Assembly (NCBI GenBank): GCA_964550855.1
Contig: CAZKBQ010000009.1
Location: forward strand, 6,009-70,008
Reading direction: 5' to 3'
Origin: an uncultured Anaerolineae bacterium
Lineage (GTDB): Bacteria; Chloroflexota; Anaerolineae; Fen-1058
Length of the DNA stretch: 64,000 bases
Under the pieces are notes generated by a model, which made no database searches, had not been told where the DNA came from, and saw only the letters and a program-made list of their open reading frames with translations. Below, in pieces: positions 2 to 37,485 of the stretch. The position numbers and the translations under genes were made by a program. Each line of letters opens with the position of its first letter. The first letter of the stretch is position 1.

Positions 2-283
2 GGCGCGGCGCAGGTGGAAGCCTATGAGTTTAGCGCGCCCGGCACGACCGGCCCTAAACGGCTGGACGTTTACTGGTACGAATGCCCATCCATCGCGATC
101 TCGCTGCCGTACCCGACGGACTGCACCGACTCGTCGGAGATCAAGATCAACGCCACGCGCGTGGCCCGGATCGACAAGCTGGGCAATCGAGTGATCATCA
201 ACGATCAGGACGACGGCGTCGCCGACGGCCGCATTCAGCTGACCATTCAATCGAGTCCGATCTACATCGACTATCAACCATGA
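2..283 (+). CDS. C-terminal end of an upstream gene (partial, unknown function)
   Basis: The frame is open from the window edge to TGA 281-283. The stop overlaps the next start (ATGA at 280-283), so this gene heads the same operon. The ~93 visible residues carry no motif I recognise. Confidence 0.45.
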   Translation, partial: GAAQVEAYEFSAPGTTGPKRLDVYWYECPSIAISLPYPTDCTDSSEIKINATRVARIDKLGNRVIINDQDDGVADGRIQLTIQSSPIYIDYQP

Positions 284-1899
284 ACCGACCGCCCGCCCGC
301 CCATGGCCCGCCATCGTAAACTTCAGTGCGGCGCTCGCCATGGTGCTGGGGCTGGGAATGGTCATTGCCGTCACGCTGCACTCCGCAGCCGCTGCTGGCC
401 CCGATCGCGCTCACCCGCCGATCGGGGCCGAGTTGTCTGCCGCCCCCCACAGCGTGGCGCTGCCCCTCATCGCCAGCGGCTTTCCGGGCTACGCCAACTG
501 TCGGCTGGGCGTGGGCGGCGTCATCAGCCCGGCTTACAACGTCGGCGCGCTCAACCTGGGCTGGACGATGGATTGGACGGCGCGGCTCAACCCGCCCGCG
601 CCCAACGGCGTCGATTACGTGCAGGTGGTGCGCATCGATTCCGACGAGACCAACGTCTATACTTTTACGCCGCCGCTGCCCGTCCTGTACCAGATTGCCG
701 ATCAAAACCCCGGCGCGATCTGGCTGCTGGGCAACGAACCCGACAGCCCCTTTCAAGATAATCTGCCGCCCGATCGGTATGCACAGGCCTATCACGATCT
801 GTATCACTGGCTGAAGCAGCGCGATCCAGCGGCACGCATTGGCGCGGGCAGCATCGTGCAACCCACCCCGATCCGGCTGCAATATCTCGATCGCGTCCTC
901 AGCGCCTACTGGCAGTTGTATGGTCAGGGCCTGCCCGCCGATGTGTGGAGCGTGCACTCGTACATCTTGCGCGAGATCGACGCCTCCGATCCACAGGCCT
1001 GCGCCGACGGCATCGACTGCCACGAGCCGCCCTATCTGTTGTGGGGCGCGTTCATGCCGCCCGGCTCGCTGCCTGCGGTCACGCGCGGCGTGCTGTACAC
1101 TTTCTCCAACATGTTCGATACCGCCATCTTCCTCCAGCGGCTGATCGATTTTCGGGTCTGGCTGCGCGATCGCGGCTACCGTGAAGTGCCTTTGTATATT
1201 ACCGAATTCGGCACACTGTTTCCCTATCCGCCCTTCATCGAAGGCGATCCGTACGTCGATGAATTCGGCGTGCCCATGACCCAGGCGCGCACGGCCGGTT
1301 TCATGACTCGCACCTTTGAGCTGCTGCGCACCGCCACCAATGCCGCCACCGGCCTGCCCGCCGACGACAACCGGCTGGTGCAGCGCTGGCTATGGTACAG
1401 CTTCGACGATCCCGGCTTCGGCGGCGCGCTGTATGATCGGAACACCGGCCAGCGCACCCTGCTGGGCAACACGTTGGCCGCTTACGCGCAGGCCATCACG
1501 CCGTCGATCGATCTGCTGGCCGTGCGCGCCGACGCCGATGCGGTGCAGCTGCCGATCGGTCAGACCACGGTGACAGGCACCGTCGCCGCGCTGATCGCCA
1601 ATTCCGGCAACATCTCAACCGGCGCGGCCATCACGGTGACGTTCCGCGCCGGATCGATCGCGCAGCCCGGGGCCGTCATCGGCGCGCCCGTCGTCCTCAC
1701 GCGCAGCCTGCCGGGCTGCGGCGAATCGCTGATCGTCACCGCAACCTGGCCTGACCTCACCGTCGGCGCACATCCCTTCCACTTTGTGATTACGACCGGC
1801 GCCGCCGAATCAAACACAGTGAACAACCAGTCACAGGGCACACTGCTCGTCGCCAGTCAACGCCTGATGCTGCCCGTCGTGGTGCGAACGCCGCGGTGA
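280..1899 (+). CDS. Secreted clan GH-A glycoside-hydrolase-like protein (glycosyl hydrolase catalytic core type) with C-terminal CARDB-like domain
   Basis: 539 aa from ATG 280; the ORF-track start at 82 would overlap the upstream gene. N-terminal signal anchor AIVNFSAALAMVLGLGMVIAV. TIM-barrel signatures WLLGNEPD (acid/base Glu) and LYITEFG (nucleophile Glu). C-terminal IANSGNISTG...ESNTVNN beta-sandwich. Colinear paralog of 5415-6914. Confidence 0.8.
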   Translation: MNRPPARPWPAIVNFSAALAMVLGLGMVIAVTLHSAAAAGPDRAHPPIGAELSAAPHSVALPLIASGFPGYANCRLGVGGVISPAYNVGALNLGWTMDWTARLNPPAPNGVDYVQVVRIDSDETNVYTFTPPLPVLYQIADQNPGAIWLLGNEPDSPFQDNLPPDRYAQAYHDLYHWLKQRDPAARIGAGSIVQPTPIRLQYLDRVLSAYWQLYGQGLPADVWSVHSYILREIDASDPQACADGIDCHEPPYLLWGAFMPPGSLPAVTRGVLYTFSNMFDTAIFLQRLIDFRVWLRDRGYREVPLYITEFGTLFPYPPFIEGDPYVDEFGVPMTQARTAGFMTRTFELLRTATNAATGLPADDNRLVQRWLWYSFDDPGFGGALYDRNTGQRTLLGNTLAAYAQAITPSIDLLAVRADADAVQLPIGQTTVTGTVAALIANSGNISTGAAITVTFRAGSIAQPGAVIGAPVVLTRSLPGCGESLIVTATWPDLTVGAHPFHFVITTGAAESNTVNNQSQGTLLVASQRLMLPVVVRTPR

Positions 1900-1903
1900 T
1901 CAC

Positions 1904-3460
1904 ATGGGGCTGATCAAGACGATCGGGCGGATTGAACGCCGCCGCCTGCCGGGGCTGATACTGGCCGCCGTTCTCGCGCTCAACATCTTCATCTCAGTGC
2001 GCTGGCTCGAACATGCCACAGTCGGCTGGGACGCGCTGGGTTACCGGATTGCGGCGCAGCAGATTGCGCGGGGCGAAGGGCCGCTGATCGCCAATCGGTT
2101 TAACGCGCAATTCGGCCCGTATTTCAGTTATGCGGCGTTCAACGTTCATCGCCCGCAGGAACCCGAACGGCTGTACCTCAACTATCCGCCAGGTTTTCCG
2201 CTGTTGCTGGCGCTGCCGCAGTGGCTGGGCTTGCCCGATGCCGTGGTGCTGCCGCTGATGAGCGCGCTCAACGTGCTGGCGACGTTTGCGCTGGGCAGCC
2301 TGCTGGTCGATCGCTGGACCGGGGTGCTGGGCGCAACCATCATCGGCCTGACGCCCGCGCACCTGGAATGGAGCACCTCGTTCTGGGCCGATCTGCCCGG
2401 AGCTGCGCTGGCGCTGACCGCGCTGACGATCTATCTGTATGCCGATCGGTGTTCGCGCGCCCGACAGGTTGTGTTGGGCCTTGCGGCCGGCCTGCTGGCG
2501 GCGGGGGCCTTCTTCATCAAGTACGCCTATGTCGTCATGCTGCTGCCGCTGTTGATCTACGCGCTCTACGCGCAGCGGTGGAGCATCTTTAAGCGGCCGG
2601 TTAACTGGGCCTTTGGGGCGACGGCGGCGCTGGGTCTGTTGGGATTGGCGGCTTACAATCAATGGCTGTTTGGCGGGCCGTTTAACACTTACTACACCTC
2701 GCCTTCGGCGGGCTTTGGCTTTCCGCAGATGAGCTTGAGCTACGCGCTGGGGCCCAGCCCGGCCGGCGGCTATTCGCTGCCGGCGGCGCTGGAAACGCTG
2801 TGGTTCAACTTCGGGTGGATACTTATCCTAAGCGCGCTGGGACTGCGCGTCGTGCGCGGTGCGTCGCGCCTGCTGCTGGTGTCGTACGCGCTGGCCTTTG
2901 TGGCGCTGGCCAGCGTGTTTGCCTGGGCGCCGCGCAACGAAGACACGCGCTATCTGGTGGCTGCCTTCGCGCCGATCGCGCTGTTGGCGGCGGCCGGTCT
3001 GCGCCGGCTGGCGCCGTCAGCCGGGGCATGGCGCAAACCACTGTTCGGCGTTATCATTGCGGCGCTGGGTGTGACGCTGCTGGCGTCGCTGTGGACGACA
3101 CTGCCCCGACTGTCGGCGCGCAATGCGGGCAGCGCGCAGGTGCTGGCCTTGGCGCGCGCGCAAGTCAGCGGCAGTGAGCCGGATGCGGTTTTTCTGGCCT
3201 ATCTCTGGAACGACCCGATCGGGCACGCGGGCCAACGCACGACCCTGTTTTACCGCCGCATCCTGGGCGCGGACGACCGGTTTGAGCAGCAGCTGGTCGA
3301 GGTAGTGAACGGTCTGCTGGCCGAGGGCACGCCGGTGTACTACGTGGCAGATCGCGTGCCGCCGCTGCGCGACAGCCTGGCCATCTTGCAGCGCCATTTT
3401 GAGGTGCGGGTCTGGAAGCCCGCGCCGCTGGCCGTGTTTCGCGTCACCCCCAAATCATAA
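1904..3460 (+). CDS. GT-C fold integral-membrane glycosyltransferase (GT39 / ArnT / PMT_2-like)
   Basis: 518 aa with about a dozen hydrophobic helices. ATG lies 4 nt after the previous stop. It has an acidic first loop (GWDALGY), an NYPPGFPLLLALP segment and a soluble C-terminal domain, as in polyprenyl-phosphate-sugar dependent transferases. Confidence 0.8.
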   Translation: MGLIKTIGRIERRRLPGLILAAVLALNIFISVRWLEHATVGWDALGYRIAAQQIARGEGPLIANRFNAQFGPYFSYAAFNVHRPQEPERLYLNYPPGFPLLLALPQWLGLPDAVVLPLMSALNVLATFALGSLLVDRWTGVLGATIIGLTPAHLEWSTSFWADLPGAALALTALTIYLYADRCSRARQVVLGLAAGLLAAGAFFIKYAYVVMLLPLLIYALYAQRWSIFKRPVNWAFGATAALGLLGLAAYNQWLFGGPFNTYYTSPSAGFGFPQMSLSYALGPSPAGGYSLPAALETLWFNFGWILILSALGLRVVRGASRLLLVSYALAFVALASVFAWAPRNEDTRYLVAAFAPIALLAAAGLRRLAPSAGAWRKPLFGVIIAALGVTLLASLWTTLPRLSARNAGSAQVLALARAQVSGSEPDAVFLAYLWNDPIGHAGQRTTLFYRRILGADDRFEQQLVEVVNGLLAEGTPVYYVADRVPPLRDSLAILQRHFEVRVWKPAPLAVFRVTPKS

Positions 3461-3478
3461 GGCAGTCCAGACAGCCGC

Positions 3479-4630
3479 ATGCCCGCCACCCGCCCCGAAC
3501 TTTCGGTCATCATGCCGTGCCTCAACGAAGCCGACACGATCGGCGAGTGCGTGGCGCGCGCCCGGCGGGCGATTGAACAGCTTGGCATCGATGCGGAAGT
3601 GGTGGTGGTGGACAACGGCTCCACCGACGGCTCACCTGAGCTGGCCGCCGCGCACGGCGCGCGGGTCATCCATCAACCGGTGCGCGGTTATGGCAGCGCC
3701 TATCTCAAAGGGCTGGCCGAAACGTGCAGTCCGTATATTATCATGGCCGATTCGGACAACACCTACGATCTGAGTGAAATCGGCCGCTTTCTCGAACCGC
3801 TGCGTGGCGGCTGCGATCTGGTGATGGGCTCGCGCTTCAAGGGCACCATCCTGCCGGGCGCGATGCCGTGGCTGCATCGCTACCTCGGCAACCCCGTGCT
3901 GACCGGCCTGCTCAATCGCCTCTTTCACACGCACGTCTCCGACGCGCACTGCGGCCTGCGCGGCCTGACGCGCGCCGCCGCCGAGCGGATGCAGCTGCGC
4001 ACGCTGGGCATGGAGTTCGCCTCGGAGATGGTGATCCGCGCCGCGCAGGAAAAGATGCAGATTACCGAGGTGCCCATCACTTACTATCCCCGCGTCGGCC
4101 AATCCAAACTGCGCTCGCTGTCCGACGGCTGGCGGCACCTGCGCTTCATGCTGCTCTATAGTCCCACTTATCTGCTGCTGGCGCCGGGCGCCGTGATGTG
4201 GTGGCTGGGCATGCTCATCGTGCTGGTGCTGCTGCCCGGGCCGCTGCCGGTGGGCGGCCACGCCTATGATATTCACTTTATGATCCTGGGCGCGTCGCTG
4301 GCGCTGCTCGGCTTTCAGGTGTTCAGCCTGGGCCTGTACGCCCGGACCTACGCCATTACCGAGCACTTCGATCGGCGCGACACCTTTCTGGACTGGTTCT
4401 GGCGGCATTTTTCGCTGGAAAAAGGCCTGATCATCGGCTCAGTATTATTCCTGATCGGGCTGGCCGTGGACGGCTACATCCTGCTACAGTGGATCACCCG
4501 CGACTTTGGGCCGCTGTACGAGGTGCGCACGGCCATCGCCGCCATGGTGCTGCTGGTGCTGGGCGCGCAGACGATCTTCGCGTCGTTCTTCCTGAGCATG
4601 CTGGGCATCCGCCGGATCGATCAAGCATGA
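3479..4630 (+). CDS. GT2 polyprenyl-phosphate glycosyltransferase (DPM1 / GtrB / ArnC-like) with C-terminal TM helices
   Basis: 383 aa. GT-A signatures LSVIMPCLNEA, VVVDNGSTDGS and DSDNTYD (DxD). Four hydrophobic helices follow residue ~230. Confidence 0.9.
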   Translation: MPATRPELSVIMPCLNEADTIGECVARARRAIEQLGIDAEVVVVDNGSTDGSPELAAAHGARVIHQPVRGYGSAYLKGLAETCSPYIIMADSDNTYDLSEIGRFLEPLRGGCDLVMGSRFKGTILPGAMPWLHRYLGNPVLTGLLNRLFHTHVSDAHCGLRGLTRAAAERMQLRTLGMEFASEMVIRAAQEKMQITEVPITYYPRVGQSKLRSLSDGWRHLRFMLLYSPTYLLLAPGAVMWWLGMLIVLVLLPGPLPVGGHAYDIHFMILGASLALLGFQVFSLGLYARTYAITEHFDRRDTFLDWFWRHFSLEKGLIIGSVLFLIGLAVDGYILLQWITRDFGPLYEVRTAIAAMVLLVLGAQTIFASFFLSMLGIRRIDQA

Positions 4631-5400
4631 CCGAGTTCGATCGCGGTTCGGAACGCGGTTACTACGATTCATTTTTCGACAGCCCGGAGGCACGGGCGCT
4701 CGATCGGGGAACGGGCTTTCGGGCGCTGCGCGCCGCGCAGGCGCAGTTCATCGCACACCAGCTTCGCGCGTTGACGAGCGCGCAGACGATTTTAAGCGTC
4801 GGCTGCGGCAACGGCGCCATTGAACAACACCTGATCGATCCGCGCTGGCGGCTGTATGCGTTCGATCTGTCCTTCGCCGGGCCGGCGCTGGGCCGGCGAC
4901 AGGTTCAGGCGCACGGGCGGGCCGGTCTGAGCTTCGCGCAGGCGGCCATCGCGCCGCTGCCCGTGCGGGACGATCAGTTCGACGGGGTGCTGGCCTTGAG
5001 CGTGCTGCATCACCTGACCGCTGCCGGGCGCGAGCGAGCCTTGCGTGAAGCGCATCGCGTGCTGCGCCCCGGCGGCTGGTTCATCGCCTACGATCCCAGT
5101 CGCTGGCGGGCGCTGCGCCTCGTCAAGTGGCTGGTGCGGCGGCGATATGATCTGATGCACAGCCCTGATGAAGAGGAACTCAATCCGCGCGAGATGCAGC
5201 AGTTGGCCGCACACTGCGGTTTCGCCCCGGCTCGATTGATCTTCTTTGACCATTTCGTCGATCCGTTGACGTGGCTGTTTCCGGCCATGCCGCCGGGGTT
5301 GTTCCGGGTATTGTACCGGCTCGATCGAATTCTGGTGCGACTGCCGGGCCGGCAGCTGGCGTCCAATTTTTTCTTGATCGCCCGGAAGCCAGTTTCCTGA
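4627..5400 (+). CDS. Class I SAM-dependent methyltransferase
   Basis: ATG 4627 overlaps the GT2 stop (ATGA); the ORF-track start at 4489 lies inside the GT2 gene. Motif I ILSVGCGNG, post-I YAFDLS, and VLRPGGWFIAYDP (Methyltransf_11-like). Confidence 0.85.
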   Translation: MTEFDRGSERGYYDSFFDSPEARALDRGTGFRALRAAQAQFIAHQLRALTSAQTILSVGCGNGAIEQHLIDPRWRLYAFDLSFAGPALGRRQVQAHGRAGLSFAQAAIAPLPVRDDQFDGVLALSVLHHLTAAGRERALREAHRVLRPGGWFIAYDPSRWRALRLVKWLVRRRYDLMHSPDEEELNPREMQQLAAHCGFAPARLIFFDHFVDPLTWLFPAMPPGLFRVLYRLDRILVRLPGRQLASNFFLIARKPVS

Positions 5401-5414
5401 TTGCGAGGCTGCCT

Positions 5415-6914
5415 GTGATCGATCGCACTCGCTGGTTGATACTGGGGCTGGTGCTGGCCCTGGGCGCGGCGCTGCTGACAGCGGCGCTGGCCTCGACCGC
5501 CGCACCAGCCGATCGGGCGGCGGCCGCGCCGCGTTCCGACGATTTTGCCAACTGCCGGTTTGGCGTGGGCGTGGCGCGCAACTCGATCAGTGTTTATCCT
5601 TATACGGCCACGCGCGCCGGCTTCTACGTCAACTGGCTGGCCGCCGACGGGGCCGCGCCGGGCCTGTCGTTCTTCGCCACCATCCGCCTGCGGCAGGTGG
5701 TGTCCAATGGCGTGTACCTGCCGCAATACGTCATCTCGCCCACGCTCGATTTTGCGCCGGGCGGGCTGGGGCCGCTGGTGCTGGCCAATCCGGGCCGCCT
5801 GTGGCTGGTGGGCAACGAAATGGATCGTCCGTACTATCAGGACGAAATGCTGCCGGACATGTACGCGCAGGCCTACCACGACGCGTACACCTTCATCAAA
5901 GGGTTGGATGCCACCGCCCGGGTCGGCATCGGCGGCGTGATCCAGCCCACCCCGGTGCGACTGCAGTATCTCGATCAGATCCTCGACGCCTACCGGCGCA
6001 AGTTCGGCGGCCGCCTGCCCGTCGATGTGTGGAACACGCACCTGTACATTTTGCAGGAGACGCGGCTGTCATGGGGGGCCGGCATCCCGCCCGGCATCGA
6101 TCTGATCACCGGCACGCTGTACACCATTCCGCAGAGCGTGGACGCCGTCGTCTTCGCCGGTCTCATCCGCGATCTGCGCGGCTGGCTGAAGGCGCGCGGC
6201 TATCAGTACACGCCCTTAATCGTCACCGAGTACGGCCTGCTGTTTCCGCTGGACATCCTGGAGAGCCAGGGCGTGACCCTGGCGCAGATGAAACAGTTCT
6301 TGAGCAACGTCATCCACTACATGAACACGGCCTGGGACGCCGAGCTGGGTGATCCGGCCGACAACTACCGGCTGGTGCAGCAGGCCGCCATCTACAGCCT
6401 GGATGATGATTCCACCGACGACCAGGGTTTCTACCGCTGGGGCAGCTTCCTTCACCAGTCGTCGCCGCCCTACACGCAGACCGCCATCGGCGCGCACTAC
6501 AACAACGTGCTGGCCGCGCTGCCCGCGCAGGTCGATTTGATCGCCATGCACGCGCAGGCTGACCCCGGCGCGCTGATTGTGCAACCCGGCGAAACGATCT
6601 CGACTGTGGTCAGCGTCCGGATCGGCAACGGTGGCAACACGCCGTTCAACGCGCCCGTCGTGGTGCGCTTCCGCGAGGTGACGGGCGGGCAGATCGGCGG
6701 AACATGGGAGGCCAGCCTGTCGCCGATGGGCGGCTGCGGACAGACGCGCGAGGTCAGCTTCACGTGGCCCAACCTGGCGATCGGCGCGCACACCGTGCAG
6801 ATAGAAGTGAATCCCGATCGCCACCTTGAAGAGACCAACTATCAGAACAACGCCCTGACACTCACTCTGGTAGCCGGGCCGCACGCGTTCTATCTGCCCG
6901 CGCAGGCACGCTGA
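5415..6914 (+). CDS. Secreted clan GH-A glycoside-hydrolase-like protein with C-terminal CARDB-like domain (paralog of 280-1899)
   Basis: GTG 5415 is the first start after the methyltransferase stop (start uncertain; CTG 5397 is possible). Signal anchor WLILGLVLALGAALLTAAL. WLVGNEMD and LIVTEYG catalytic-Glu motifs. Shared ANCRFGVG and QPTPVRLQYLD blocks. C-terminal IGNGGNTPF...ETNYQNN CARDB. Confidence 0.8.
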   Translation: MIDRTRWLILGLVLALGAALLTAALASTAAPADRAAAAPRSDDFANCRFGVGVARNSISVYPYTATRAGFYVNWLAADGAAPGLSFFATIRLRQVVSNGVYLPQYVISPTLDFAPGGLGPLVLANPGRLWLVGNEMDRPYYQDEMLPDMYAQAYHDAYTFIKGLDATARVGIGGVIQPTPVRLQYLDQILDAYRRKFGGRLPVDVWNTHLYILQETRLSWGAGIPPGIDLITGTLYTIPQSVDAVVFAGLIRDLRGWLKARGYQYTPLIVTEYGLLFPLDILESQGVTLAQMKQFLSNVIHYMNTAWDAELGDPADNYRLVQQAAIYSLDDDSTDDQGFYRWGSFLHQSSPPYTQTAIGAHYNNVLAALPAQVDLIAMHAQADPGALIVQPGETISTVVSVRIGNGGNTPFNAPVVVRFREVTGGQIGGTWEASLSPMGGCGQTREVSFTWPNLAIGAHTVQIEVNPDRHLEETNYQNNALTLTLVAGPHAFYLPAQAR

Positions 6915-6929
6915 GCGTGATCACACAAA

Positions 6930-6960
6930 CGCCCGGCCGCTGAAGGTCAGCGGCCGGGCG
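6930..6960. terminator. Hairpin terminator between convergent genes
   Basis: 14-bp perfect stem CGCCCGGCCGCTGA / TCAGCGGCCGGGCG with a 3-nt loop. On the minus strand it is followed by TTTGTGTG. It sits between the stop at 6914 (+) and the stop at 6982 (-). Confidence 0.65.
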
Positions 6961-6981: not shown

Positions 6982-7503
6982 CTACAGGCGGATGTACCGC
7001 TTCCACTCCGGGCGAATGTCCGACGACAGGATCAGGTAGTTGGTGCGCGGCATCTTCGGCTCAAAATTGGGATTGTGAAAGCGCATGCCCGCTTCGTGCA
7101 TGGAGCGGCCACCCTTGCGCTGCTGGCAGCGCGGGCAGCTGGCCACCGTGTTGCTCCACGTATTGGGCGGGATATTTTTGGCGCGGCACTCCCACTGCGG
7201 GATCACGTGATCGATGGTAGCCTCGCGCGGGGCCAAGTGCTTGCCGCAATACTGGCACACGTGATGATCGCGCGCCAGCACGCCGCGCCGGCTCCAGCCT
7301 ACGCCGCGCCGCGGCACGTTGACGTAGTACCGCAGCCGCAGGACGCTGGGCATGGGTTGCCGCGTGCTCTTGGAGCGCAGCTCGCGCCCCGGCACCGCTT
7401 CGATCAGGTCCACTTTGCCGTCCATCAACAGCCCAATGGCGCGGCTCAACTTGACGACGGCCAGCGGCTCAAATGAGGCATTGAGAAGCAGCACGCTCGA
7501 CAT
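6982..7503 (-). CDS. HNH endonuclease family protein
   Basis: 173 aa from ATG 7503 (MSSVLLLNASFEPL...). DHHVCQYCG...IDHVIP...CPRCQQRKG gives the HNH His-Asn-His core flanked by two Cys pairs. The longer 241-aa form adds a non-conserved leader. Confidence 0.85.
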   Translation of the reverse strand: MSSVLLLNASFEPLAVVKLSRAIGLLMDGKVDLIEAVPGRELRSKSTRQPMPSVLRLRYYVNVPRRGVGWSRRGVLARDHHVCQYCGKHLAPREATIDHVIPQWECRAKNIPPNTWSNTVASCPRCQQRKGGRSMHEAGMRFHNPNFEPKMPRTNYLILSSDIRPEWKRYIRL

Positions 7504-7621
7504 GGTGCATCGATCCTGATGATACCCGCCCGCTTCAAAATCCGTGTTAAGGTCGAATGATCCTTTCTTTACAAACGTGAAGTATAGCAGAAGAATGCCC
7601 GATCCCAAAATTCCGATCCGG

Positions 7622-7650
7622 TTGACGCGGGCTGCGTCACGCGGTACACT
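7622..7650 (+). promoter_or_regulatory. Candidate sigma-70 promoter for the peptidase gene
   Basis: TTGACG (7622-7627), 17-nt spacer, TACACT (7645-7650). AAGGAG RBS at 7678-7683, 6 nt before GTG 7690. Confidence 0.45.
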
Positions 7651-7689
7651 TGCCGGGCCGATTGAGCCGCTTGCCCCAAGGAGACCCGC

Positions 7690-9282
7690 GTGACTCACCC
7701 GTTGCAAACGTTCATCGACGATTACACGGCCCAGTTGGCCCCCCTGCTCACCGCGCGCAACCTGGCCTCGTGGCGGTTCTCCACGCAGGGCGACGCAACC
7801 GCACAGGCCGAATATGCCCGCCTCAGCACCGAGCTACGCCTGCTGCACGCCGACGCCGACCGCTTCGCGCGGCTCAAGGCGCTCTCGGCATCGCCCAGCG
7901 GCGACGCGCTGCTGGACCGGCAGGCGCAGTTGGCTCGTTACAGCTTCCAGTCGCAGCAGATGCCGCGCGATCTGATCGAGCAGATCGTGGCGCTGGAGAC
8001 GGAGATCGAGGCCGAGTTCAACGCCTATCGCGGCGTCATCGACGGACGCACCTACACCGACAACGAACTCAAGGCCCTGCTGCGCGACTCCAACGATGTG
8101 GCCCTGCGGCGGGCGGCCTGGGAAGCCAGCAAGCAGATCGGCGCGCAGGTGGCCGGGCGCGTGTTGAAGACAGTGGCCCTGCGTAATCAGGCCGCCCGCG
8201 CCATGGGCTTCGACAACTTCTACACCATGAGCCTGGCATTACAGGAGTTGGACGAAGCGCAGTTGTTCGATCTGTTTGATCGTCTGGAGCAGCTGACCCG
8301 CCCCTTGTTTGCCGCTTACAAAGCCGATCTCGATCGCCGGTTGGCCGATCGGTTTGGAATCCAACCCGATCGGCTGCGCCCCTGGCACTACGCCGATCCG
8401 TTCTTCCAGGAAGTGCCCGCCGATCCCGAACTCGACCTCGATCGCTTCTACGCGGATCAAGACGTGGTGGCGCTGACGCAGCAGTTCTATCAGGCCATCG
8501 GCCTGCCCATCGAAGACATCATCGCGCGCAGCGATTTGTACGAGCGGCCCGGCAAGTACCAACACGCCTATTGCGAAGACATGGATCGAGCGGGCGACGT
8601 GCGAGTCGTGTGCAACGTGCAGCCCAACGAATACTGGCTCAGCACGATGCTGCACGAGTACGGGCATGCCGTATACTTCAAGTATCTGGACTCGACGCTG
8701 CCGTTTTTACTGCGCGATCCCGCGCACACACTGAGCACCGAAGCGGTGGCGATGTTAATGGGCCGCCTCAGCGCCAACGGCGACTGGCTCAAGCGCTACG
8801 TCGGCGCGGCACCCGGTGAGATCGCGCAACTCGAAGGCCGCCTCGCCGCGCAGCAGCACGCCTCGCTGCTGGTCTTTACGCGCTGGGCGTTGACGATGTG
8901 CCACTTCGAGCGCGAACTGTATCGCGATCCACAGCAGGACTTGAACACGTCGTGGTGGAACCTTGTCGAAAAGTACCAGCTGGTCAGGCGCCCCGACGAT
9001 CGCCGCGCGCCCGATTGGGCCGCCAAAATTCATCTGGCGTGCTACCCGGCATATTATCAAAACTACATGCTGGGCGAGATGACGGCCTCGCAGCTGCTGG
9101 AATACATCACGCAGCGCGTGCTGAACGGCGAACGTGCGCGCTTTGTGGACAGCCCGCAAGTAGGCACGTATTTGAAAGAACGCTTCTTTCAGTTGGGCGC
9201 GCGCTTCGATTGGAACGGCGCGTTGAAAGCGGCCACCGGTGAAGAATTAAAGCCGGAGTATTTTGCCAGGCACCTGTCGTGA
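7690..9282 (+). CDS. Gluzincin zinc metallopeptidase (M2/M3-like peptidyl-dipeptidase / oligoendopeptidase)
   Basis: 530 aa with a GTG start behind a strong RBS. HEYGHAVY (HExxH) is followed about 25 aa later by STEAVAM (third-ligand Glu). The overall helical composition is typical of M2/M3 enzymes. Confidence 0.85.
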   Translation: MTHPLQTFIDDYTAQLAPLLTARNLASWRFSTQGDATAQAEYARLSTELRLLHADADRFARLKALSASPSGDALLDRQAQLARYSFQSQQMPRDLIEQIVALETEIEAEFNAYRGVIDGRTYTDNELKALLRDSNDVALRRAAWEASKQIGAQVAGRVLKTVALRNQAARAMGFDNFYTMSLALQELDEAQLFDLFDRLEQLTRPLFAAYKADLDRRLADRFGIQPDRLRPWHYADPFFQEVPADPELDLDRFYADQDVVALTQQFYQAIGLPIEDIIARSDLYERPGKYQHAYCEDMDRAGDVRVVCNVQPNEYWLSTMLHEYGHAVYFKYLDSTLPFLLRDPAHTLSTEAVAMLMGRLSANGDWLKRYVGAAPGEIAQLEGRLAAQQHASLLVFTRWALTMCHFERELYRDPQQDLNTSWWNLVEKYQLVRRPDDRRAPDWAAKIHLACYPAYYQNYMLGEMTASQLLEYITQRVLNGERARFVDSPQVGTYLKERFFQLGARFDWNGALKAATGEELKPEYFARHLS

Positions 9283-10179: not shown

Positions 10180-10251
10180 CAATGACAAATGACAAAACCC
10201 CATGGGGGCGCTTGCGTCATTTGTCATTGGTCGTTTTTCATTGGCCATTGG
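10180..10251. repeat. Inverted heptanucleotide-repeat element (AATGACA / TGTCATT type) with central CCCCATGGGG palindrome
   Basis: CAATGACAAATGAC (10180-10193) is the perfect reverse complement of GTCATTTGTCATTG (10216-10229). The loop contains the palindrome CCCCATGGGG (10198-10207). Further units GTCGTTT TTCATTG GCCATTG follow. Confidence 0.85.
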
Positions 10252-10259
10252 AGATTGCC

Positions 10260-19290: not shown

Positions 19291-19295
19291 GACGC

Positions 19296-19604: not shown

Positions 19605-19608
19605 GCGT

Positions 19609-20742: not shown

Positions 20743-20780
20743 GAGCAGATTATACCAGTGCGAAAGAAGGATGGAGATAG

Positions 20781-20816: not shown

Positions 20817-20833
20817 AGGGCGCTCATTTCCCG

Positions 20834-31256: not shown

Positions 31257-31277
31257 GGGCCTCGATTATATTCACAC

Positions 31278-33676: not shown

Positions 33677-36232
33677 TCACCGAGGGACTATCTGCACCCG
33701 ATCGATCACGAAGCCCAACGTGCGATCGTCGGCGCTGAGGTGCAAGGCAGCGGGGTTAAAACTCGCGGTGTCAAAAGCCAATGTCGATGAGTCGCCGGCC
33801 GGCCGGGATTGAACCTGAAACGCATAAGTCTGCCATTCCCCATAGCGCGGTGTAAAGCGCCCAATCTCGCGCCCGTCCAATGACACGCTCACTTCGGCGG
33901 GCGGCAGATCCTCCGGGCGAAACGTCATCGCGCGCACCGTGATCGTGATCGGAGCCGCCTCCGCCAACGGCAGATCGATGATGGCCCGATCGCTCGTCCA
34001 GCGCGCCGACGTCCCATCGGGCAAAATATCCTTGGCGTAAAAACCTGATCGTAGATAAGCTGCATCCAATGTGCCGACGTCGATCTCAATCGGCAGTGGC
34101 GCAGCACGCAAGTCTTTACGCTGCACATCATAGATCTCAAAGCCGTAATACGCCGGCTGAATCACCGCTGGATAATCGTAAAACGTCCCCATCAAAGCGC
34201 GCAAAGTTGTGGAATACAGGCCCGCCGGCTTCAGATCGATAGCGTGATGCACCGCCGCCGGCAGGGGATCGATCGTCAGCAGCTGCACCGGCCGATTGGA
34301 TGCGGCGGCCTGCGCCAAAACCCGATCGAGCACGGCGGCGACCGCGGCTTCGTCTTCGCTGCGGATCGTCGCCACATCGTGTCCAAAGGTAAAACGCAGC
34401 GGCACGCCCAACGCATCGGCCAGTGACGATTCCGGCGGATCGACCATGACCACGATGGCGTTCGGCTTCAGCTGCGCATTGAGCGCGGTCAGCGCATCCA
34501 CCGCGCCAAAGAAATCACGCTGCGGCAGCACAAACCGTGCCTGATAGATCAGCCCGGCCATCAGGCCCAGCGTCAATGCCAGCGCCGCGCCACGAGTGAG
34601 CCAGCGCCGACGCCAGTCCCACATTCCCCACAAGGCGTAAGCCGCAAAGATCATCAGCGTCGGCAGAACAATGGGCACATAGCGGCGCATGGCGTAGATG
34701 TGATACGGGGTGTTGAAGATGTTATACACGTATTGAATCGTCGTCAGCACGCCCACCGACAGGAACAGGCCCAGCCGCAGCAGCGCAGCGCGGCGCACCA
34801 GCCAAGCCGCGCCCCACGTCGCCAGCCCGATGCCGAGCGGCGTGATGTACCAGCCTATCCGCACCCAGTTCTGCGCGTCGAGCACGGGATACTGCACGTT
34901 GCCGGGCCAGGCCGTGACAAAGCGGATCGGCTCGATGACGGGGCGCACGAAATAAGCAAAAATACTGATCGCCGTCAGCCCGCCCGCCAGCAGCCAGCGG
35001 GCGCGCTGCCGCGCCGCCGATGACAATGTCCGGCGACGCCAGCGCCGCCGCAGCGCGCTGACGGCGATGACCGTCGCCAGCATGCCGGCCGCGCCGCCGG
35101 CGGCGATCACCGGCGAGCGCTCCAGCAGGCGCGCCACACTGCCATACGTGTTCCAGGCATACGGCCAGTTGATGGCGATCAGATCGATCAACATGTGAAC
35201 GGTGAAGATGCCCAGCGTCAGCGTGAACCACGTCCACGCGCGCGTCCACTGCCCGCGCGCCCGCACGGCGATCAACGCCACGCCGATCAACGCCAGCACC
35301 AGCGGCAGATCGATGCGCGTCAGCACGGCCGCGCCGAAGGCCGCGCCGCCGAAGACGCCCCAGATGGCGGGCGCCGATCGATCGTCGATCAGGACTTGAA
35401 AAGCCAGCAGGCCGCTGAAGACCAGCAGCAGCGTCAGCGGCTCGGTGGTGGGGTAGCGCGCAAAGTAGATGTGCGTGGGCGTGAGCGCCAGCAGCGTCGC
35501 GGCCAGCAGCGCCACCCGCCGATCGAACAGCTGTCGCGCCGCAAAATACACCGCCGCCAGGCTCAGCACACCCCACAGCGGCGTGACCAGCAGGCCCAGC
35601 TTCAGGCCGCCCAGACTGGTGCCTACGGCGACGAGCGCGGGATGCAGGGGCAAAAACTGAGGGATGATGCGCCCGGCGTCCGCGTCGTCCAGGTAATAGC
35701 CGACAAACTGTAGATAGCGCGTCTGCCACGCGGGCGGCTGCCGGCGCAGGGTCACGTCGGGATAGTCGCGCATGAGCCGCGACCAATCGTCGCCGGTCAC
35801 GACAAATTGGCCGGTCTGCGCCAGGGTGCTGCTGATGTTCAGATACGTGCCCGCATCGGTGCCGCCCAGCACGTACTCGTGCGGCCGGAAGTACACCACG
35901 GCGCTGCCGATAAGCAGGACTGCTAAACCGACTTCGTATCGTGTGGGGGCGCGGAAGATCGATCGGGGACGGCGGCGAAGCCAAAAGAGCAGCCCCACGG
36001 AGCAGACCCATTCGATCAGGCCGATCCAGCCGATCGAGTACGAGTTGATTGACGCCAGGATCACGCCGATCCAGCCGGTGACGATGACGGCGCTGATGAC
36101 GGCGAGGAATACGGCCAGCGGCCAGTCGAGCGGGCGCGCGCTGGCGGCCCAGGCCAGCAACGCAGTGGTGATCAACGCGAGGCAGCCGGTGACGAACAGG
36201 ATCGCGGCCGGCGCGTCAACTACGCCGATCAT
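33677..36232 (-). CDS. Large GT-C-like polytopic membrane glycosyltransferase with C-terminal extracytoplasmic domain
   Basis: 851 aa with about 15 TM helices. The YVLGGTDAGTYLN loop and ALTPTHIYFARYPTTEPL segment resemble ArnT/PMT_2-type enzymes. A ~290-aa soluble C-terminus ends in DDRTLGFVIDRVQIVPR. The start overlaps the wzt-like stop (ATGA). Confidence 0.8.
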   Translation of the reverse strand: MIGVVDAPAAILFVTGCLALITTALLAWAASARPLDWPLAVFLAVISAVIVTGWIGVILASINSYSIGWIGLIEWVCSVGLLFWLRRRPRSIFRAPTRYEVGLAVLLIGSAVVYFRPHEYVLGGTDAGTYLNISSTLAQTGQFVVTGDDWSRLMRDYPDVTLRRQPPAWQTRYLQFVGYYLDDADAGRIIPQFLPLHPALVAVGTSLGGLKLGLLVTPLWGVLSLAAVYFAARQLFDRRVALLAATLLALTPTHIYFARYPTTEPLTLLLVFSGLLAFQVLIDDRSAPAIWGVFGGAAFGAAVLTRIDLPLVLALIGVALIAVRARGQWTRAWTWFTLTLGIFTVHMLIDLIAINWPYAWNTYGSVARLLERSPVIAAGGAAGMLATVIAVSALRRRWRRRTLSSAARQRARWLLAGGLTAISIFAYFVRPVIEPIRFVTAWPGNVQYPVLDAQNWVRIGWYITPLGIGLATWGAAWLVRRAALLRLGLFLSVGVLTTIQYVYNIFNTPYHIYAMRRYVPIVLPTLMIFAAYALWGMWDWRRRWLTRGAALALTLGLMAGLIYQARFVLPQRDFFGAVDALTALNAQLKPNAIVVMVDPPESSLADALGVPLRFTFGHDVATIRSEDEAAVAAVLDRVLAQAAASNRPVQLLTIDPLPAAVHHAIDLKPAGLYSTTLRALMGTFYDYPAVIQPAYYGFEIYDVQRKDLRAAPLPIEIDVGTLDAAYLRSGFYAKDILPDGTSARWTSDRAIIDLPLAEAAPITITVRAMTFRPEDLPPAEVSVSLDGREIGRFTPRYGEWQTYAFQVQSRPAGDSSTLAFDTASFNPAALHLSADDRTLGFVIDRVQIVPR

Positions 36233-37485
36233 GCCCGGCCCGCGATGACGGTTTCTGCTTGCGGCGCATGCTGCCAGCGGGCGGGCAGATGCACCACGCC
36301 GGACTCATTCCAGCCGGTGCGTGAGCGAACTTCAAGCGGATAAAGGCGGTGATGGTGATCGATGGCGACGGTGGAGTCGCGGTTGTAGATGGCGACGGTG
36401 AGCTCGTATTCGCCGGGATTGAGCGGGAGCGCGTCGATGATGTAGTCCACCGTGCCGTCGCCTTCGATGTAGGGGATGTCGTAGCCGTCGGCCACCGAGT
36501 TGGGACCGTTGATGTGCAGGCCGTCGCGGCGGTAAAACGCCAGTCCAAACGTGGGCGTCTCCAGCCGCTCGTGTGCGCGGTAATGCAGGCGCAGCGTAAA
36601 GGCTTCGCCGGTCTTGAATTGGGTGCGAGGTTGACCGTCGGCGCCCAACAGTTCCACCTGCACGATCTCGGCTTGATAGGTGCCAAAGCGATTGGCCGAG
36701 CGCGCGGCGATGGTGGGCGCTCGGCGCTTGATCTTGACCTGGGCCTGCTCGTCCGTGTACTCGCCGCCGAGCAGCGCCGGGTCGCCGTCGGCGCGCAGCA
36801 AGCCGTCGGAGATCCACAAGGCCCGGTTGCACAACTGCTGAATCTGGCCCATGCTGTGCGAGACCAGCACCAGCGTAACACCCTGCGTCTGCAATTCCGT
36901 CAGCCTTTCGGCGCACTTGCGTTGAAAGGCCGCGTCGCCCACGGCCAGCACCTCGTCGATCAGCAGGATGTCGGGGTTAAGCGCGGTGCTCACGGCAAAG
37001 CCCAGCCGCACGATCATGCCCGACGAGTAGTTGCGAACCTGCACGTCGATGAACGGGCCGATGTCGGCGAAATCGATGATGGCGTCCAGCTGGCGTTTGA
37101 TCTCGGCCCGGGAGATGCCCAGGATGGAGGCGTTGAGAAAAATGTTCTCGCGCCCGGTCAGATCGGGGTGAAAGCCGGTACCCAATTCCAGCAACCCGGC
37201 GATGCGTCCCTGCGTGTGGATGCGGCCGGTGGTCGGCTCGATCACACGACTCATGAGCTTGAGCAGCGTGCTCTTGCCGGAGCCGTTGGTGCCGATGATG
37301 CCCACGCGCTCGCCGGGCTGAATCTCAAACGACACGTCGCGCAACGCCCAGAAGGTGCCGCCGCTGACGCGTTCGTGGTCGGCGCGCTGGCGCCGCCGGA
37401 TCAGCAGCTCCTGCAGCGAGCGAGCGCGCCCCAGGTTGAGGTCGAACTTTTTGGCGACGTGATCGAAGACGATGGCCGGCGTCAC
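36229..37485 (-). CDS. Wzt/TagH-type polysaccharide-export ABC ATPase with C-terminal carbohydrate-binding (Wzt_C-like) domain
   Basis: 418 aa with a GTG start. Walker A GTNGSGKST, signature YSSGM, Walker B ILLIDEVLAVGD. A ~150-aa beta-rich C-terminal extension (GEAFTLRLHYRA...FGLAFYRRDG...GEYELTVAIY). Confidence 0.9.
   Translation of the reverse strand: MTPAIVFDHVAKKFDLNLGRARSLQELLIRRRQRADHERVSGGTFWALRDVSFEIQPGERVGIIGTNGSGKSTLLKLMSRVIEPTTGRIHTQGRIAGLLELGTGFHPDLTGRENIFLNASILGISRAEIKRQLDAIIDFADIGPFIDVQVRNYSSGMIVRLGFAVSTALNPDILLIDEVLAVGDAAFQRKCAERLTELQTQGVTLVLVSHSMGQIQQLCNRALWISDGLLRADGDPALLGGEYTDEQAQVKIKRRAPTIAARSANRFGTYQAEIVQVELLGADGQPRTQFKTGEAFTLRLHYRAHERLETPTFGLAFYRRDGLHINGPNSVADGYDIPYIEGDGTVDYIIDALPLNPGEYELTVAIYNRDSTVAIDHHHRLYPLEVRSRTGWNESGVVHLPARWQHAPQAETVIAGRA

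What the first reader, a model, noticed from the sequence alone, without database searches (positions are those of the whole stretch)
2..6960. Tightly coupled six-gene operon: two paralogous secreted GH-A/CARDB enzymes bracket a GT-C / GT2 / methyltransferase core
The gene order is: partial gene, GH-A+CARDB, GT-C (ArnT-like), membrane GT2 (polyprenyl-P-sugar synthase type), SAM methyltransferase, GH-A+CARDB.

The junctions are ATGA overlap, 4 nt, 18 nt, ATGA overlap and 14 nt. The first strong hairpin appears only at 6930-6960.

GT2 plus GT-C is the classical two-step logic for extracytoplasmic glycosylation through a lipid-linked monosaccharide, as in the ArnC/ArnT, GtrB/GtrC and Dpm1/PMT systems.

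Both flanking hydrolase-like proteins keep both catalytic Glu motifs (NEP and TE[FY]G). Having the synthesis pair flanked by two such enzymes, together with a methyltransferase, suggests a self-contained extracellular glycan build-and-trim or transglycosylation module. I cannot name its substrate.
Basis: partly seen in the sequence, partly recalled or inferred. Interest (0 to 1): 0.6.

Follow-up and report, generated by a model that had tools for sequence, protein, structure and literature searches.

The report
Chloroflexota cell-surface glycan processing operon
The tightly packed genes are real and belong to a gene module shared by many filamentous Chloroflexota, which most likely decorates and trims a sugar polymer of the cell surface after it has been exported; the parts are of known kinds, but this combination has not been described and none of its enzymes has been tested.

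Summary
The gene order, the junctions (ATGA, 4, 18, ATGA, 14 nt), the paralogy of the two flanking proteins (34% identity, E 3e-72) and the hairpin at 6930-6960 are all as described.

There are three corrections:
- The operon starts upstream of the window and has eight genes. It begins with an exported homologue of virginiamycin B lyase (Vgb), a beta-propeller. The "partial gene" follows and is a homologue of PslG (GH39 fold).
- The conserved unit is not the six genes. It is propeller, PslG-like, GH128-like/CARDB, GT-C, nearly always next to a Wzt ABC-transporter ATPase. Wzt flanks the block in 13 of 16 loci that hold an orthologue of this GT-C, spread across Anaerolineae, Ardenticatenales, Caldilineaceae and others. 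In this genome Wzt lies about 30 kb away, at 36229-37485(-).
- The GT2 + methyltransferase pair is an accessory cassette. The second GH/CARDB gene is a divergent paralogue found only in the closest relatives.

Predicted structures place both kinds of hydrolase in clan GH-A with all catalytic residues kept. The GT2 is closest to dolichyl-phosphate-mannose synthase and ArnC.

Best reading (about 0.55): an extracytoplasmic decoration and trimming module for a Wzt-exported envelope polysaccharide. It resembles GacI/GacL or MtxS/MtxT combined with PslG-type biosynthetic hydrolases.

It is a new variant of a known kind, of moderate interest.

The parts
2..283 (+). 3' end of g0, an exported PslG-like (GH39-fold) glycoside hydrolase of 482 aa. 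The gene starts 1165 nt before the window (G000:C9:4843-6291). An exported homologue of virginiamycin B lyase (a beta-propeller) lies 16 nt further upstream (G000:C9:3669-4826).
   Evidence: A family profile matches PslG by sequence (E 6.5e-19). The AlphaFold model (pLDDT 84) matches PslG 5bx9 by fold (E 3e-23, TM 0.73-0.75). R102, N189, E190, H264, Y266, E304 and W340 are invariant. The propeller matches Vgb lyase 2z2n (E 5e-23).
280..1899 (+). g1, 539 aa: N-terminal TM helix or signal peptide, linker, clan GH-A (beta/alpha)8 barrel (GH128-like), C-terminal CARDB-like beta-sandwich, and a tail ...LMLPVVVRTPR. Its start overlaps the g0 stop (ATGA).
   Evidence: R75, N152, E153, H226, Y273, E309 and W370 are invariant in 48 sequences.
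1904..3460 (+). g2, 518 aa: a polytopic GT-C glycosyltransferase (PMT_2) with a C-terminal soluble domain of about 110 aa. D43, in the first predicted outside loop, is nearly invariant.
   Evidence: Weak match only to solved GT-C structures (STT3, E 0.003).
3479..4630 (+). g3, 383 aa: a GT2 with a cytoplasmic catalytic domain and four C-terminal TM helices, of the polyprenyl-phosphate-sugar synthase type.
   Evidence: Near-identical copies on other contigs carry PF26629 GT2_TM_C.
4627..5400 (+). g4, 257 aa: a soluble class I SAM-dependent methyltransferase, translationally coupled (ATGA) to g3.
   Evidence: The order GT2 then MTase is kept in L021/L034, L095, L097 and L018/L019.
5415..6914 (+). 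g5, 499 aa: a divergent paralogue of g1 (GH-A barrel with N-E-M and T-E-Y-G motifs, plus CARDB), with an N-terminal signal or anchor and a tail ...FYLPAQAR.
   Evidence: Orthologues were found only in L011, L018 (first 71 aa, at a contig end) and L095.
6930..6960 (.). Perfect 14-bp G+C-rich hairpin between the convergent g5 and HNH endonuclease (6982-7707, minus strand) genes. Its T-tract is on the minus strand.
33677..37485 (-). Probable distal partners. Wzt (ABC ATPase + Wzt_C, 36229-37485) is translationally coupled to a PMT_2 GT-C with a CBM-like C-terminus (33677-36232). In relatives, orthologues of this Wzt lie directly beside the propeller / GH / GT-C block.
   Evidence: That these genes work with the operon in this genome is inferred.

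Best explanation
The six genes are the last six of an eight-gene operon that matures a cell-envelope polysaccharide on the outer face of the membrane.

Proposed steps:
- The polymer is built in the cytoplasm on a polyprenyl carrier and exported by a Wzt-type ABC transporter. Wzt is encoded next to this block in most relatives and about 30 kb away here.
- g3 (GT2) charges polyprenyl phosphate with one sugar on the cytoplasmic face.
- g4 (methyltransferase), which always follows g3, methylates that lipid-linked sugar or the glycan.
- After flipping, g2 (GT-C) transfers the sugar onto the exported polymer outside the cell.
- Four exported proteins cut, trim or re-join the polymer as it is laid down: the Vgb-lyase-like propeller, the PslG-like hydrolase g0, and the GH128-like/CARDB enzymes g1 and g5. 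PslG, BcsZ and AlgL do this in other polysaccharide systems.

Shown here: gene structure, folds, conserved catalytic residues, membrane segments, and conserved gene neighbourhoods.

Inferred: the substrate, the direction of each reaction, the role of the methyltransferase, and the link to the distant Wzt.
For: Structure and family:
- g0's family profile hits PslG by sequence (E 6.5e-19) and by fold (E 3e-23, TM 0.73-0.75, whole length).
- g1's model matches GH128 (TM 0.73-0.80), PslG and GH158, plus a solved CARDB domain.
- Both families keep the full clan GH-A catalytic set.
- All four exported proteins have one N-terminal hydrophobic segment.

GT2 and GT-C:
- GT2: DPMS 5mlz E 4e-16, ArnC E 2e-11, four C-terminal TM helices.
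- GT-C: PMT_2 above its cut-off.

Synteny:
- 13 of 16 genome loci with an orthologue of this GT-C carry propeller, PslG-like, GH/CARDB and GT-C together, 11 of them in the same order.
- A Wzt orthologue flanks 13 of the 16.
- Among 29 relatives that have the GH/CARDB family, 15 have Wzt within 7 kb of it and 12 have the PslG-like gene adjacent.
- All 4 GT-C orthologues among the relatives lie next to a GH/CARDB gene.
- Surrounding genes in relatives are GT2, GT4, methyltransferases, dTDP-rhamnose enzymes, DUF4012 and Wzy_C.
- GT2 then MTase recurs next to GT-C genes of two families, PMT_2 and GT87.

Precedents:
- Polysaccharide gene clusters encode a hydrolase or a lyase, and PslG is a GH39 retaining endo-beta-glucosidase (PMC11912335).
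- MtxS (GT2) and MtxT (GT-C) cap lipoarabinomannan through a decaprenyl-phosphate sugar (PMC8780516).
Against: - No enzyme of either hydrolase family, nor of this GT-C clade, has been assayed, so the substrate is unknown.
- In this genome Wzt is about 30 kb from the operon, and no Wzm permease gene lies next to it.
- No GtrA-type flippase is encoded in the operon.
- The relative whose g1 is 72% identical lacks GT2 and MTase altogether, so that step is dispensable for the core.
- g1 and g5 fall below Pfam's thresholds for GH128 and CARDB.
Confidence: 0.55

Rival explanations
1. Protein O-glycosylation system. g3 makes polyprenyl-phosphate-mannose (like Ppm1 or DPMS). g2 acts like actinobacterial Pmt and glycosylates exported proteins during secretion. 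The co-encoded exported enzymes would be among its substrates.
For: - g2 hits PMT_2, and some orthologues hit PF02366 (PMT) and are named 'glycosyltransferase family 39' by their source.
- The best solved relative of g3 is dolichyl-phosphate-mannose synthase.
- All neighbouring products are exported.
- A third GH paralogue, on contig C38, has a long Thr/Ser/Pro-rich linker.
- TMEM260-like GT-C genes occur in related loci.
Against: - The g2 family profile does not retrieve solved PMT or ArnT structures, only STT3 weakly.
- The conserved loop-1 acidic residue is D-A, not the D-E pair that I recall as typical of PMTs (from memory).
- The constant partner is Wzt with its glycan-cap-binding domain, plus polysaccharide glycosyltransferases. 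This points to a polysaccharide acceptor.
- g1 and g5 have no Ser/Thr-rich linkers.
Confidence: 0.15
2. The GT-C is itself a polymerase or elongating transferase, like the Emb and Aft arabinosyltransferases. It would build a glycan outside the cell from polyprenyl-phosphate monosaccharide, and the hydrolases would set chain length or release the product.
For: - The genome holds about 51 PMT_2-type genes, several in tandem arrays. That fits GT-C enzymes doing bulk extracytoplasmic synthesis.
- In Ca. Leptofilum the block stands alone with Wzt and has no cytoplasmic glycosyltransferases nearby.
- GT2 then MTase also pairs with a GT87-like GT-C.
Against: - Most related loci do carry a full set of cytoplasmic GT2 and GT4 enzymes plus Wzt.
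- A dedicated GT2 donor synthase is adjacent in only a minority of loci.
- Nothing distinguishes a polymerase from a single-addition GT-C at the sequence level.
Confidence: 0.15
3. Catabolic enzymes. The propeller and the hydrolases are secreted to degrade environmental polysaccharides such as beta-1,3-glucans for food, and their position next to glycosyltransferase genes has no functional meaning.
For: The closest solved structures to g1 are the beta-1,3-glucanases GH128 and GH158 (PMC10956234). Filamentous Chloroflexota are known polysaccharide degraders.
Against: - The linkage to GT-C and Wzt holds across orders of the phylum, often with overlapping stop and start codons.
- No sugar transporter, regulator or downstream catabolic gene was seen next to the block in the loci examined.
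- g0 is a specific homologue of the biosynthetic hydrolase PslG.
Confidence: 0.1

Closest known systems
PslG of the Pseudomonas aeruginosa psl cluster (GH39) and other hydrolases or lyases encoded in polysaccharide synthesis clusters (Pel hydrolase, alginate lyase; PMC11912335)
   Same: g0 is a sequence and fold homologue of PslG: an N-terminal membrane segment, a (beta/alpha)8 barrel with both Glu, and a C-terminal beta-sandwich. Like PslG it is encoded inside a polysaccharide locus.
   Different: Identity is only about 19%. The locus carries three or four different exported glycan-active proteins instead of one. The pathway partner is Wzt (ABC-dependent), whereas Psl is, as I recall, made by a Wzx/Wzy-type pathway. 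The host is a Chloroflexota bacterium, a phylum reported to lack the outer-membrane assembly (BAM) and lipopolysaccharide pathways (PMC13319060).
GH128 beta-1,3-glucanases (Pfam Glyco_hydro_cc, PF11790; PMC10956234, PMC11046878)
   Same: They are the best structural matches of g1's barrel (TM 0.73-0.80). Many orthologues, and the paralogue on contig C38, pass the PF11790 threshold. The retaining clan GH-A catalytic residues are kept.
   Different: Identity is 17% or less. The barrel is about 335 aa, against 230-260 aa. A CARDB domain is fused. g1 and g5 themselves fall below the Pfam cut-off. The genomic context is biosynthetic, not catabolic. This may be a separate, uncharacterised GH family, with 924 representative clusters at E <= 1e-30.
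Two-step extracytoplasmic glycosylation through a polyprenyl-phosphate sugar: MtxS/MtxT (PMC8780516). ArnC/ArnT, GtrB/GtrC, GacI/GacL and Ppm1/Pmt are further examples recalled from my own knowledge.
   Same: There is a membrane GT2 closest to DPMS and ArnC, plus a PMT_2-type GT-C, adjacent and on the same strand. The pairing recurs in independent loci.
   Different: - No GtrA-like flippase is encoded.
- A methyltransferase is translationally coupled to the GT2.
- The GT-C is linked more tightly to exported hydrolases and Wzt than to its GT2.
- No equivalog model is met (AglJ 167 bits against a cut-off of 325).
ABC-transporter-dependent (Wzm/Wzt) polysaccharide pathways in which Wzt_C recognises the chain cap
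   Same: A Wzt with a Wzt_C domain is the constant neighbour of the block in relatives. Methyltransferases, GT2/GT4 enzymes and dTDP-rhamnose genes surround it.
   Different: No Wzm gene was found beside this Wzt, either here or in Ca. Leptofilum. Here Wzt is coupled to a GT-C with a CBM-like domain. In this genome the transporter gene is 30 kb from the operon.

Membership tests
Clan GH-A glycoside hydrolases (g1, g5, g0) | (beta/alpha)8 barrel fold | tested here: met
   AlphaFold models: g1 pLDDT 89, g0 pLDDT 84. Foldseek gives GH128, GH39, GH158 and GH30 barrels at E 1e-10 to 3e-23. g5 was not modelled; it is 34% identical to g1 over the whole length.
Clan GH-A glycoside hydrolases (g1, g5, g0) | Acid/base Glu after strand 4 (N-E motif) and nucleophile Glu after strand 7 | tested here: met
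   g1: N152-E153 follows strand 147-150 and E309 lies in strand 305-310; both are invariant in 48 sequences. g5 has GNEMD and VTEYG. g0: N189-E190 and E304 are invariant in 19 sequences.
Clan GH-A glycoside hydrolases (g1, g5, g0) | Glycosidase or transglycosylase activity | not testable with these tools
   Needs enzyme assays.
GH128 / Pfam PF11790 Glyco_hydro_cc (g1, g5) | Score above Pfam's gathering cut-off (21 bits) | tested here: not met
   g1 scores 18.9 bits and g5 has no hit. The paralogue on contig C38 scores 33.5 bits, and many orthologues carry a precomputed PF11790 hit. g1 and g5 are therefore borderline relatives, not clear members.
GH39 / PslG-like (g0) | Significant sequence and whole-length fold match to PslG | tested here: met
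   The family profile matches 5bx9 at E 6.5e-19. Foldseek gives E 3e-23, TM 0.73-0.75, over 447 aligned columns that include the C-terminal sandwich. CAZy/dbCAN assignment was not available. The only Pfam hit for the single sequence is Cellulase, 16.8 bits, below its 23.5 cut-off.
CARDB domain (PF07705) | Pfam cut-off, or fold match to a solved CARDB domain | tested here: inconclusive
   g5 scores 19.6 bits against a cut-off of 22.7, and g1 has no hit. The g1 model matches the CARDB domain of PF1109 (3idu) with TM 0.72-0.80, E 1e-6. Many orthologues carry PF07705.
GT-C glycosyltransferases, PMT_2 type (g2) | PF13231 above its cut-off; polytopic membrane protein; conserved acidic residue in the first outside loop | tested here: met
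   38.6 bits against 26.1. At least 8 hydrophobic segments. D43 is kept in 90% or more of 27 orthologues. Its outside location is inferred from the positive-inside rule.
GT39 protein O-mannosyltransferases (g2) | Specific relationship to PMT/Pmt, including the loop-1 D-E motif (feature recalled from memory) | tested here: not met
   The profile of 27 orthologues finds no PMT or ArnT among solved structures, only STT3 at E 0.003. The loop-1 residue pair is D-A. Only some orthologues carry PF02366.
Polyprenyl-phosphate sugar synthases of GT2 (DPMS, ArnC, GtrB, AglJ type) (g3) | GT2 catalytic domain followed by C-terminal TM helices; closest relatives are lipid-phosphate glycosyltransferases | tested here: met
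   PF00535 at E 2e-27. DPMS 5mlz E 4e-16 and ArnC E 2e-11. Four C-terminal hydrophobic segments. PF26629 GT2_TM_C is recorded on near-identical and orthologous copies.
Polyprenyl-phosphate sugar synthases of GT2 (g3) | Membership of a named equivalog (AglJ, ArnC, PpgS), which would give the sugar | tested here: not met
   AglJ 167 bits against 325; ArnC 42 against 529; PpgS 82 against 370. The sugar is unknown.
Class I SAM-dependent methyltransferases (g4) | Methyltransf_11/25 domain above its cut-off | tested here: met
   69.8 bits against 21.2. The substrate cannot be told. The orthologue group is small: 11 clusters at 56% identity or more, then a drop to 35% or less.
Wzm/Wzt ABC-transporter-dependent polysaccharide pathway | Wzt ATPase with a Wzt_C domain, linked to the locus | tested here: met
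   Wzt lies at window 36229-37485(-): Wzt_C 103.5 bits. Orthologues flank the block in 13 of 16 loci and lie within 7 kb of a GH/CARDB gene in 15 of 29 relatives. In this genome the distance is about 30 kb.
Wzm/Wzt ABC-transporter-dependent polysaccharide pathway | Wzm (ABC-2 permease) gene next to Wzt | tested here: not met
   No PF01061 hit lies within the window's part of contig C9. The only canonical Wzm-Wzt pair is on contig C63. No Wzm was seen beside Wzt in Ca. Leptofilum either.
YLP-box putative sorting motif (NCBIfam NF050076) | Match to the curated motif model at the C-terminus | tested here: not met
   A genome-wide scan at E <= 10 gives 19 hits, none on the operon's proteins. Tail fragments give no NCBIfam hit. 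The tails GLYLPIVRRD (propeller), LMLPVVVRTPR (g1) and FYLPAQAR (g5) only resemble the motif.

The most novel reading that the evidence does not exclude
The block Wzt, Vgb-lyase-like propeller, PslG-like hydrolase, GH128-like/CARDB hydrolase and GT-C is the dedicated machinery that lays down and remodels the non-lipid outer layer of the multilayered envelope of filamentous Chloroflexota, whose composition is still unknown. In this reading the retaining GH-A enzymes work mainly as transglycosylases: they cut the exported polymer and re-join it into the existing layer as the filament grows. The GH/CARDB proteins would be a new glycoside hydrolase family with that role.
Probability: 0.15. Interest if true: 0.75.

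Novelty: new variant of a known kind. Interest (0 to 1): 0.45.

Why it matters
Chloroflexota have layered envelopes without an ordinary outer membrane or lipopolysaccharide. The outer layers are only suggested to be polysaccharide or protein (PMC13319060).

A gene block kept across several orders of the phylum joins an export ATPase, a membrane glycosyltransferase and three kinds of exported glycan-cutting proteins. That gives concrete candidates for how such a layer is finished and turned over.

It also points to a large uncharacterised hydrolase family. With 924 representative clusters at E <= 1e-30, it has no tested member, and it could be assayed on purified envelope material from cultured relatives.

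Tried and rejected
- Single-sequence searches of solved structures with g1, g5 and g2 gave almost nothing. Profiles and predicted folds were needed.
- The GT-C profile found only STT3 weakly, so no donor or acceptor can be inferred from solved relatives.
- I looked for a Wzm permease beside the window's Wzt and found none. Small unannotated proteins next to Wzt in relatives were not Wzm either: one is the C-terminal part of the PMT_2/CBM protein.
- I expected the 939-aa family member P0274 to be a PslG-like + GH/CARDB fusion. It is a tandem of two GH/CARDB modules.
- I tested whether the C-terminal tails are catalogued YLP-boxes. The NCBIfam model does not hit them.
- I considered that GT2 + MTase might be a recent foreign insertion. 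Base composition shows no break. The higher identity of the GT2 to a distant orthologue (71%, against 42-48% for the neighbouring genes) can be explained by stronger constraint, so no claim is made.
- Literature searches found no description of this module. The library is partial, so this is not proof of absence.

Full report
**Observation.**
- partial gene 2-283
- g1 280-1899 (ATGA overlap)
- g2 1904-3460 (4-nt gap)
- g3 3479-4630 (18-nt gap)
- g4 4627-5400 (ATGA overlap)
- g5 5415-6914 (GTG start, 14-nt gap)

Gene calls made by others on 90-99% identical metagenome contigs give the same boundaries. The hairpin at 6930-6960 is a perfect 14-bp stem with 12 G-C pairs. Its T-run is on the minus strand, so it is formally the terminator of the convergent HNH endonuclease gene at 6982-7707(-). 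It may still stop both transcripts. The weak terminator-like hits inside the operon are no more numerous than in shuffled sequence (6 found, 5.8 expected).

**Family assignments.**
- g2 is a PMT_2-type GT-C (38.6 bits against a cut-off of 26.1).
- g3 is a GT2 (E 2e-27). Its best NCBIfam hits are AglJ, dolichyl-phosphate hexose transferase, PpgS and ArnC, all below their equivalog cut-offs.
- g4 is a class I SAM methyltransferase.
- Among solved structures g3 is closest to Pyrococcus dolichyl-phosphate-mannose synthase (5mlz, E 4e-16) and ArnC (E 2e-11). It has four C-terminal hydrophobic segments.
- g1 and g5 have only sub-threshold Pfam hits but are clear paralogues (34% identity, E 3e-72).

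**Fold of g1.** An AlphaFold model of g1, built on 48 homologues (pLDDT 89, pTM 0.83), shows a TM helix at 12-37, a disordered linker, a (beta/alpha)8 barrel at 70-405 and a beta-sandwich at 410-525. Foldseek against the PDB gives:
- GH128 enzymes, including CBM6E, a GH128 curdlanase (PMC10956234), at TM 0.73-0.80
- PslG (GH39) and the laminarinase BuGH158
- a solved CARDB domain for the C-terminal part (TM 0.72-0.80)

All matches are at 17% identity or less. R75, N152, E153, H226, Y273, E309 and W370 are invariant in the family; N152-E153 follows strand 4 and E309 lies in strand 7, as clan GH-A requires. g5 reads N-E-M rather than N-E-P but keeps both Glu.

**The operon is longer than the finding.** The window is G000:C9:6009-70008. 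The partial gene is the end of a 482-aa gene, g0 (C9:4843-6291). It is preceded, after 16 nt, by a 385-aa gene (C9:3669-4826). Upstream of that lies a divergent aspartate/ornithine carbamoyltransferase gene.
- The first protein is an exported homologue of virginiamycin B lyase (2z2n, E 5e-23), a beta-propeller. Its tail reads ...GLYLPIVRRD.
- g0 is a homologue of PslG. A profile of 19 family members hits PslG at E 6.5e-19.
- The g0 model (pLDDT 84) superposes on PslG over its whole length, including the C-terminal sandwich (E 3e-23, TM 0.73-0.75).
- N189-E190 and E304 of g0 are invariant.
- PslG is the retaining endo-beta-glucosidase encoded inside the psl exopolysaccharide cluster (PMC11912335).

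**What is conserved.** I scanned one genome per species for orthologues of the GT-C and obtained 16 loci with a full-length orthologue. They come from Anaerolineae, Anaerolineales, Ardenticatenaceae, Caldilineaceae, Ca. Leptofilum and genomes labelled Chloroflexia. Mapping the eight proteins onto these loci gave:

| Gene content of the block | Loci (of 16) |
|---|---|
| propeller, PslG-like, GH/CARDB, GT-C in this order | 11 |
| the same four genes, permuted | 2 |
| three of the four genes | 2 |
| none (one 7-kb contig) | 1 |

An orthologue of the window's Wzt (window 36229-37485(-), 40-52% identical) lies immediately before the propeller gene or just after the GT-C, or after its GT2 (and MTase) cassette, in 13 of the 16 loci.

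An independent sample of 40 relatives gave the same picture:
- 29 have the GH/CARDB family.
- In 12 of these the PslG-like gene is adjacent.
- In 15 a Wzt orthologue lies within 7 kb.
- All four GT-C orthologues sit next to a GH/CARDB gene.

Annotated neighbourhoods in metagenome contigs show the block at the head of variable polysaccharide loci. These hold GT2 and GT4 enzymes, several methyltransferases, dTDP-rhamnose enzymes, DUF4012, Wzy_C and further GT-C genes. The propeller is fused to the PslG-like protein in several genomes. Two GH/CARDB modules are fused in tandem in others.

**What varies.**
- A relative whose methyltransferase is 90% identical has exactly the window's eight genes, followed by the convergent HNH gene.
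- The relative whose g1 is 72% identical has propeller, g0, g1, GT-C, g5, a 667-aa polytopic membrane protein and then HNH. It has no GT2 or MTase.
- A distant Anaerolineae genome keeps GH/CARDB, GT-C, GT2 (71% identical), MTase (56%) and then Wzt.
- GT2 then MTase also occurs before a GT87-like GT-C.
- The g3 orthologue of another relative lies head to head with a different PMT_2 gene.
- The methyltransferase has only 11 close orthologue clusters.
- In a maximum-likelihood tree, g5 and its orthologues form a long-branch clade seen only in the closest relatives, while g1 sits in the canonical clade.

So GT2 + MTase is an accessory cassette that travels with GT-C genes. The second hydrolase is a lineage-specific duplicate, although in-locus duplicates of this family recur elsewhere.

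**Mechanism.**

*Shown:*
- Four exported proteins with lyase-like or retaining-hydrolase folds and intact catalytic residues.
- One GT2 of the lipid-phosphate type with a cytoplasmic domain.
- One soluble methyltransferase.
- One polytopic GT-C with a conserved Asp in its first predicted outside loop.
- A conserved link to Wzt.

*Inferred:*
- A polymer made on a polyprenyl carrier is exported by the Wzt system.
- g3 loads one sugar on polyprenyl phosphate.
- g4 methylates that sugar or the glycan.
- g2 transfers the sugar to the polymer outside the membrane.
- The propeller, g0, g1 and g5 trim, release or re-join the polymer.

The closest analogies are MtxS/MtxT, which cap lipoarabinomannan with a methylthio-sugar through decaprenyl phosphate (PMC8780516); GacI/GacL and ArnC/ArnT, which I cite from my own knowledge; and PslG-type biosynthetic hydrolases (PMC11912335). 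I put this reading at about 0.55.

The rivals are:
- protein O-glycosylation of exported proteins (0.15)
- a polymerising GT-C (0.15)
- purely catabolic secreted enzymes (0.10)

**Weak points.**
- In this genome the Wzt gene is about 30 kb away. It is coupled to another GT-C that carries a CBM-like domain.
- No Wzm permease gene is next to it.
- No flippase is encoded in the operon.
- No member of these hydrolase or GT-C clades has been assayed.
- Transcript data could not be obtained.

**Earlier notes of this scan.** Notes on this window pointed to short "YLP-box"-like tails on exported proteins and to a WbaP + GT4 string at 17854-21946. The propeller, g1 and g5 do end in such tails. The g0 family has a YLPLV-like motif just after its anchor. 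However, the curated NCBIfam motif model does not hit them. I therefore record a resemblance only.

**Novelty.** Each part belongs to a known kind. The combination is what I did not find described in the literature I could search. It consists of a phylum-wide block of Wzt, a lyase-like propeller, a PslG homologue, a GH128-like/CARDB hydrolase and a GT-C, with an optional GT2 + methyltransferase cassette.

The GH/CARDB family is large: 924 representative clusters at E <= 1e-30 and 2,799 at E <= 1e-10. It has no characterised member. The composition of the outer layers of Chloroflexota envelopes is still open (PMC13319060), so the block is a reasonable candidate for work on that question.

**Verdict.** This is a new variant of a known kind, with interest 0.45.

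Noticed in passing
whole genome G000 (for example contigs C70 and C75); window 24569-26611, 33677-36232: The genome gives 51 matches to the PMT_2 GT-C model, 47 above the cut-off. Several lie in tandem arrays: nine on C75 and six on C70. This is a very large expansion of membrane glycosyltransferases of unknown acceptors.
   Followed up: partly
window 33677-37485 (-): The Wzt ATPase gene overlaps (ATGA-type) the start of an 851-aa PMT_2 protein with a CBM60-like C-terminus. No Wzm permease gene is nearby. The Wzt + GT-C/CBM pairing is also seen in relatives.
   Followed up: partly
window 6982-7707 (-): The convergent HNH endonuclease is 89% identical to its counterpart in the relative whose operon proteins are only 63-72% identical, and it holds the same position there.
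   Followed up: no
window 7690-9282 and 10182-10925; L036:380-2993; L016:855-1460: An M3-family peptidase gene and a uracil-DNA glycosylase gene lie beside the block here. Both also lie beside it in Ca. Leptofilum, and the glycosylase gene does in another relative. This suggests an older conserved neighbourhood.
   Followed up: no
G000:C9:3669-4826 (upstream of the window); window 1867-1899 and 6888-6914; L004:5000-5050: The propeller, g1 and g5 end in short tails (GLYLPIVRRD, LMLPVVVRTPR, FYLPAQAR). The PslG-like family has a YLPLV-type motif just after its N-terminal anchor. These resemble the catalogued YLP-box, but the curated model does not hit them.
   Followed up: partly
L011:8564-10567: In the relative whose g1 is 72% identical, a 667-aa polytopic membrane protein follows g5. 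It has no Pfam hit and no homologue in this genome, and the GT2 + methyltransferase pair is absent there.
   Followed up: partly
L012/L013:5358-6914 (G003, same genus): The GT-C orthologue of a same-genus genome is split into three short ORFs with frame changes. This is either a pseudogene or an assembly error.
   Followed up: no
G000:C38:500-1834 (L005): A third paralogue of the GH family lacks the CARDB domain. It carries a Thr/Ser/Pro/Ala-rich linker of about 90 aa after its anchor and passes the Glyco_hydro_cc threshold at 33.5 bits.
   Followed up: partly
window 29067-33548 (-): Two adjacent paralogous proteins of about 730 aa, with weak DUF1565 (beta-helix) and fn3 hits, lie directly downstream of the Wzt / GT-C pair.
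   Followed up: no
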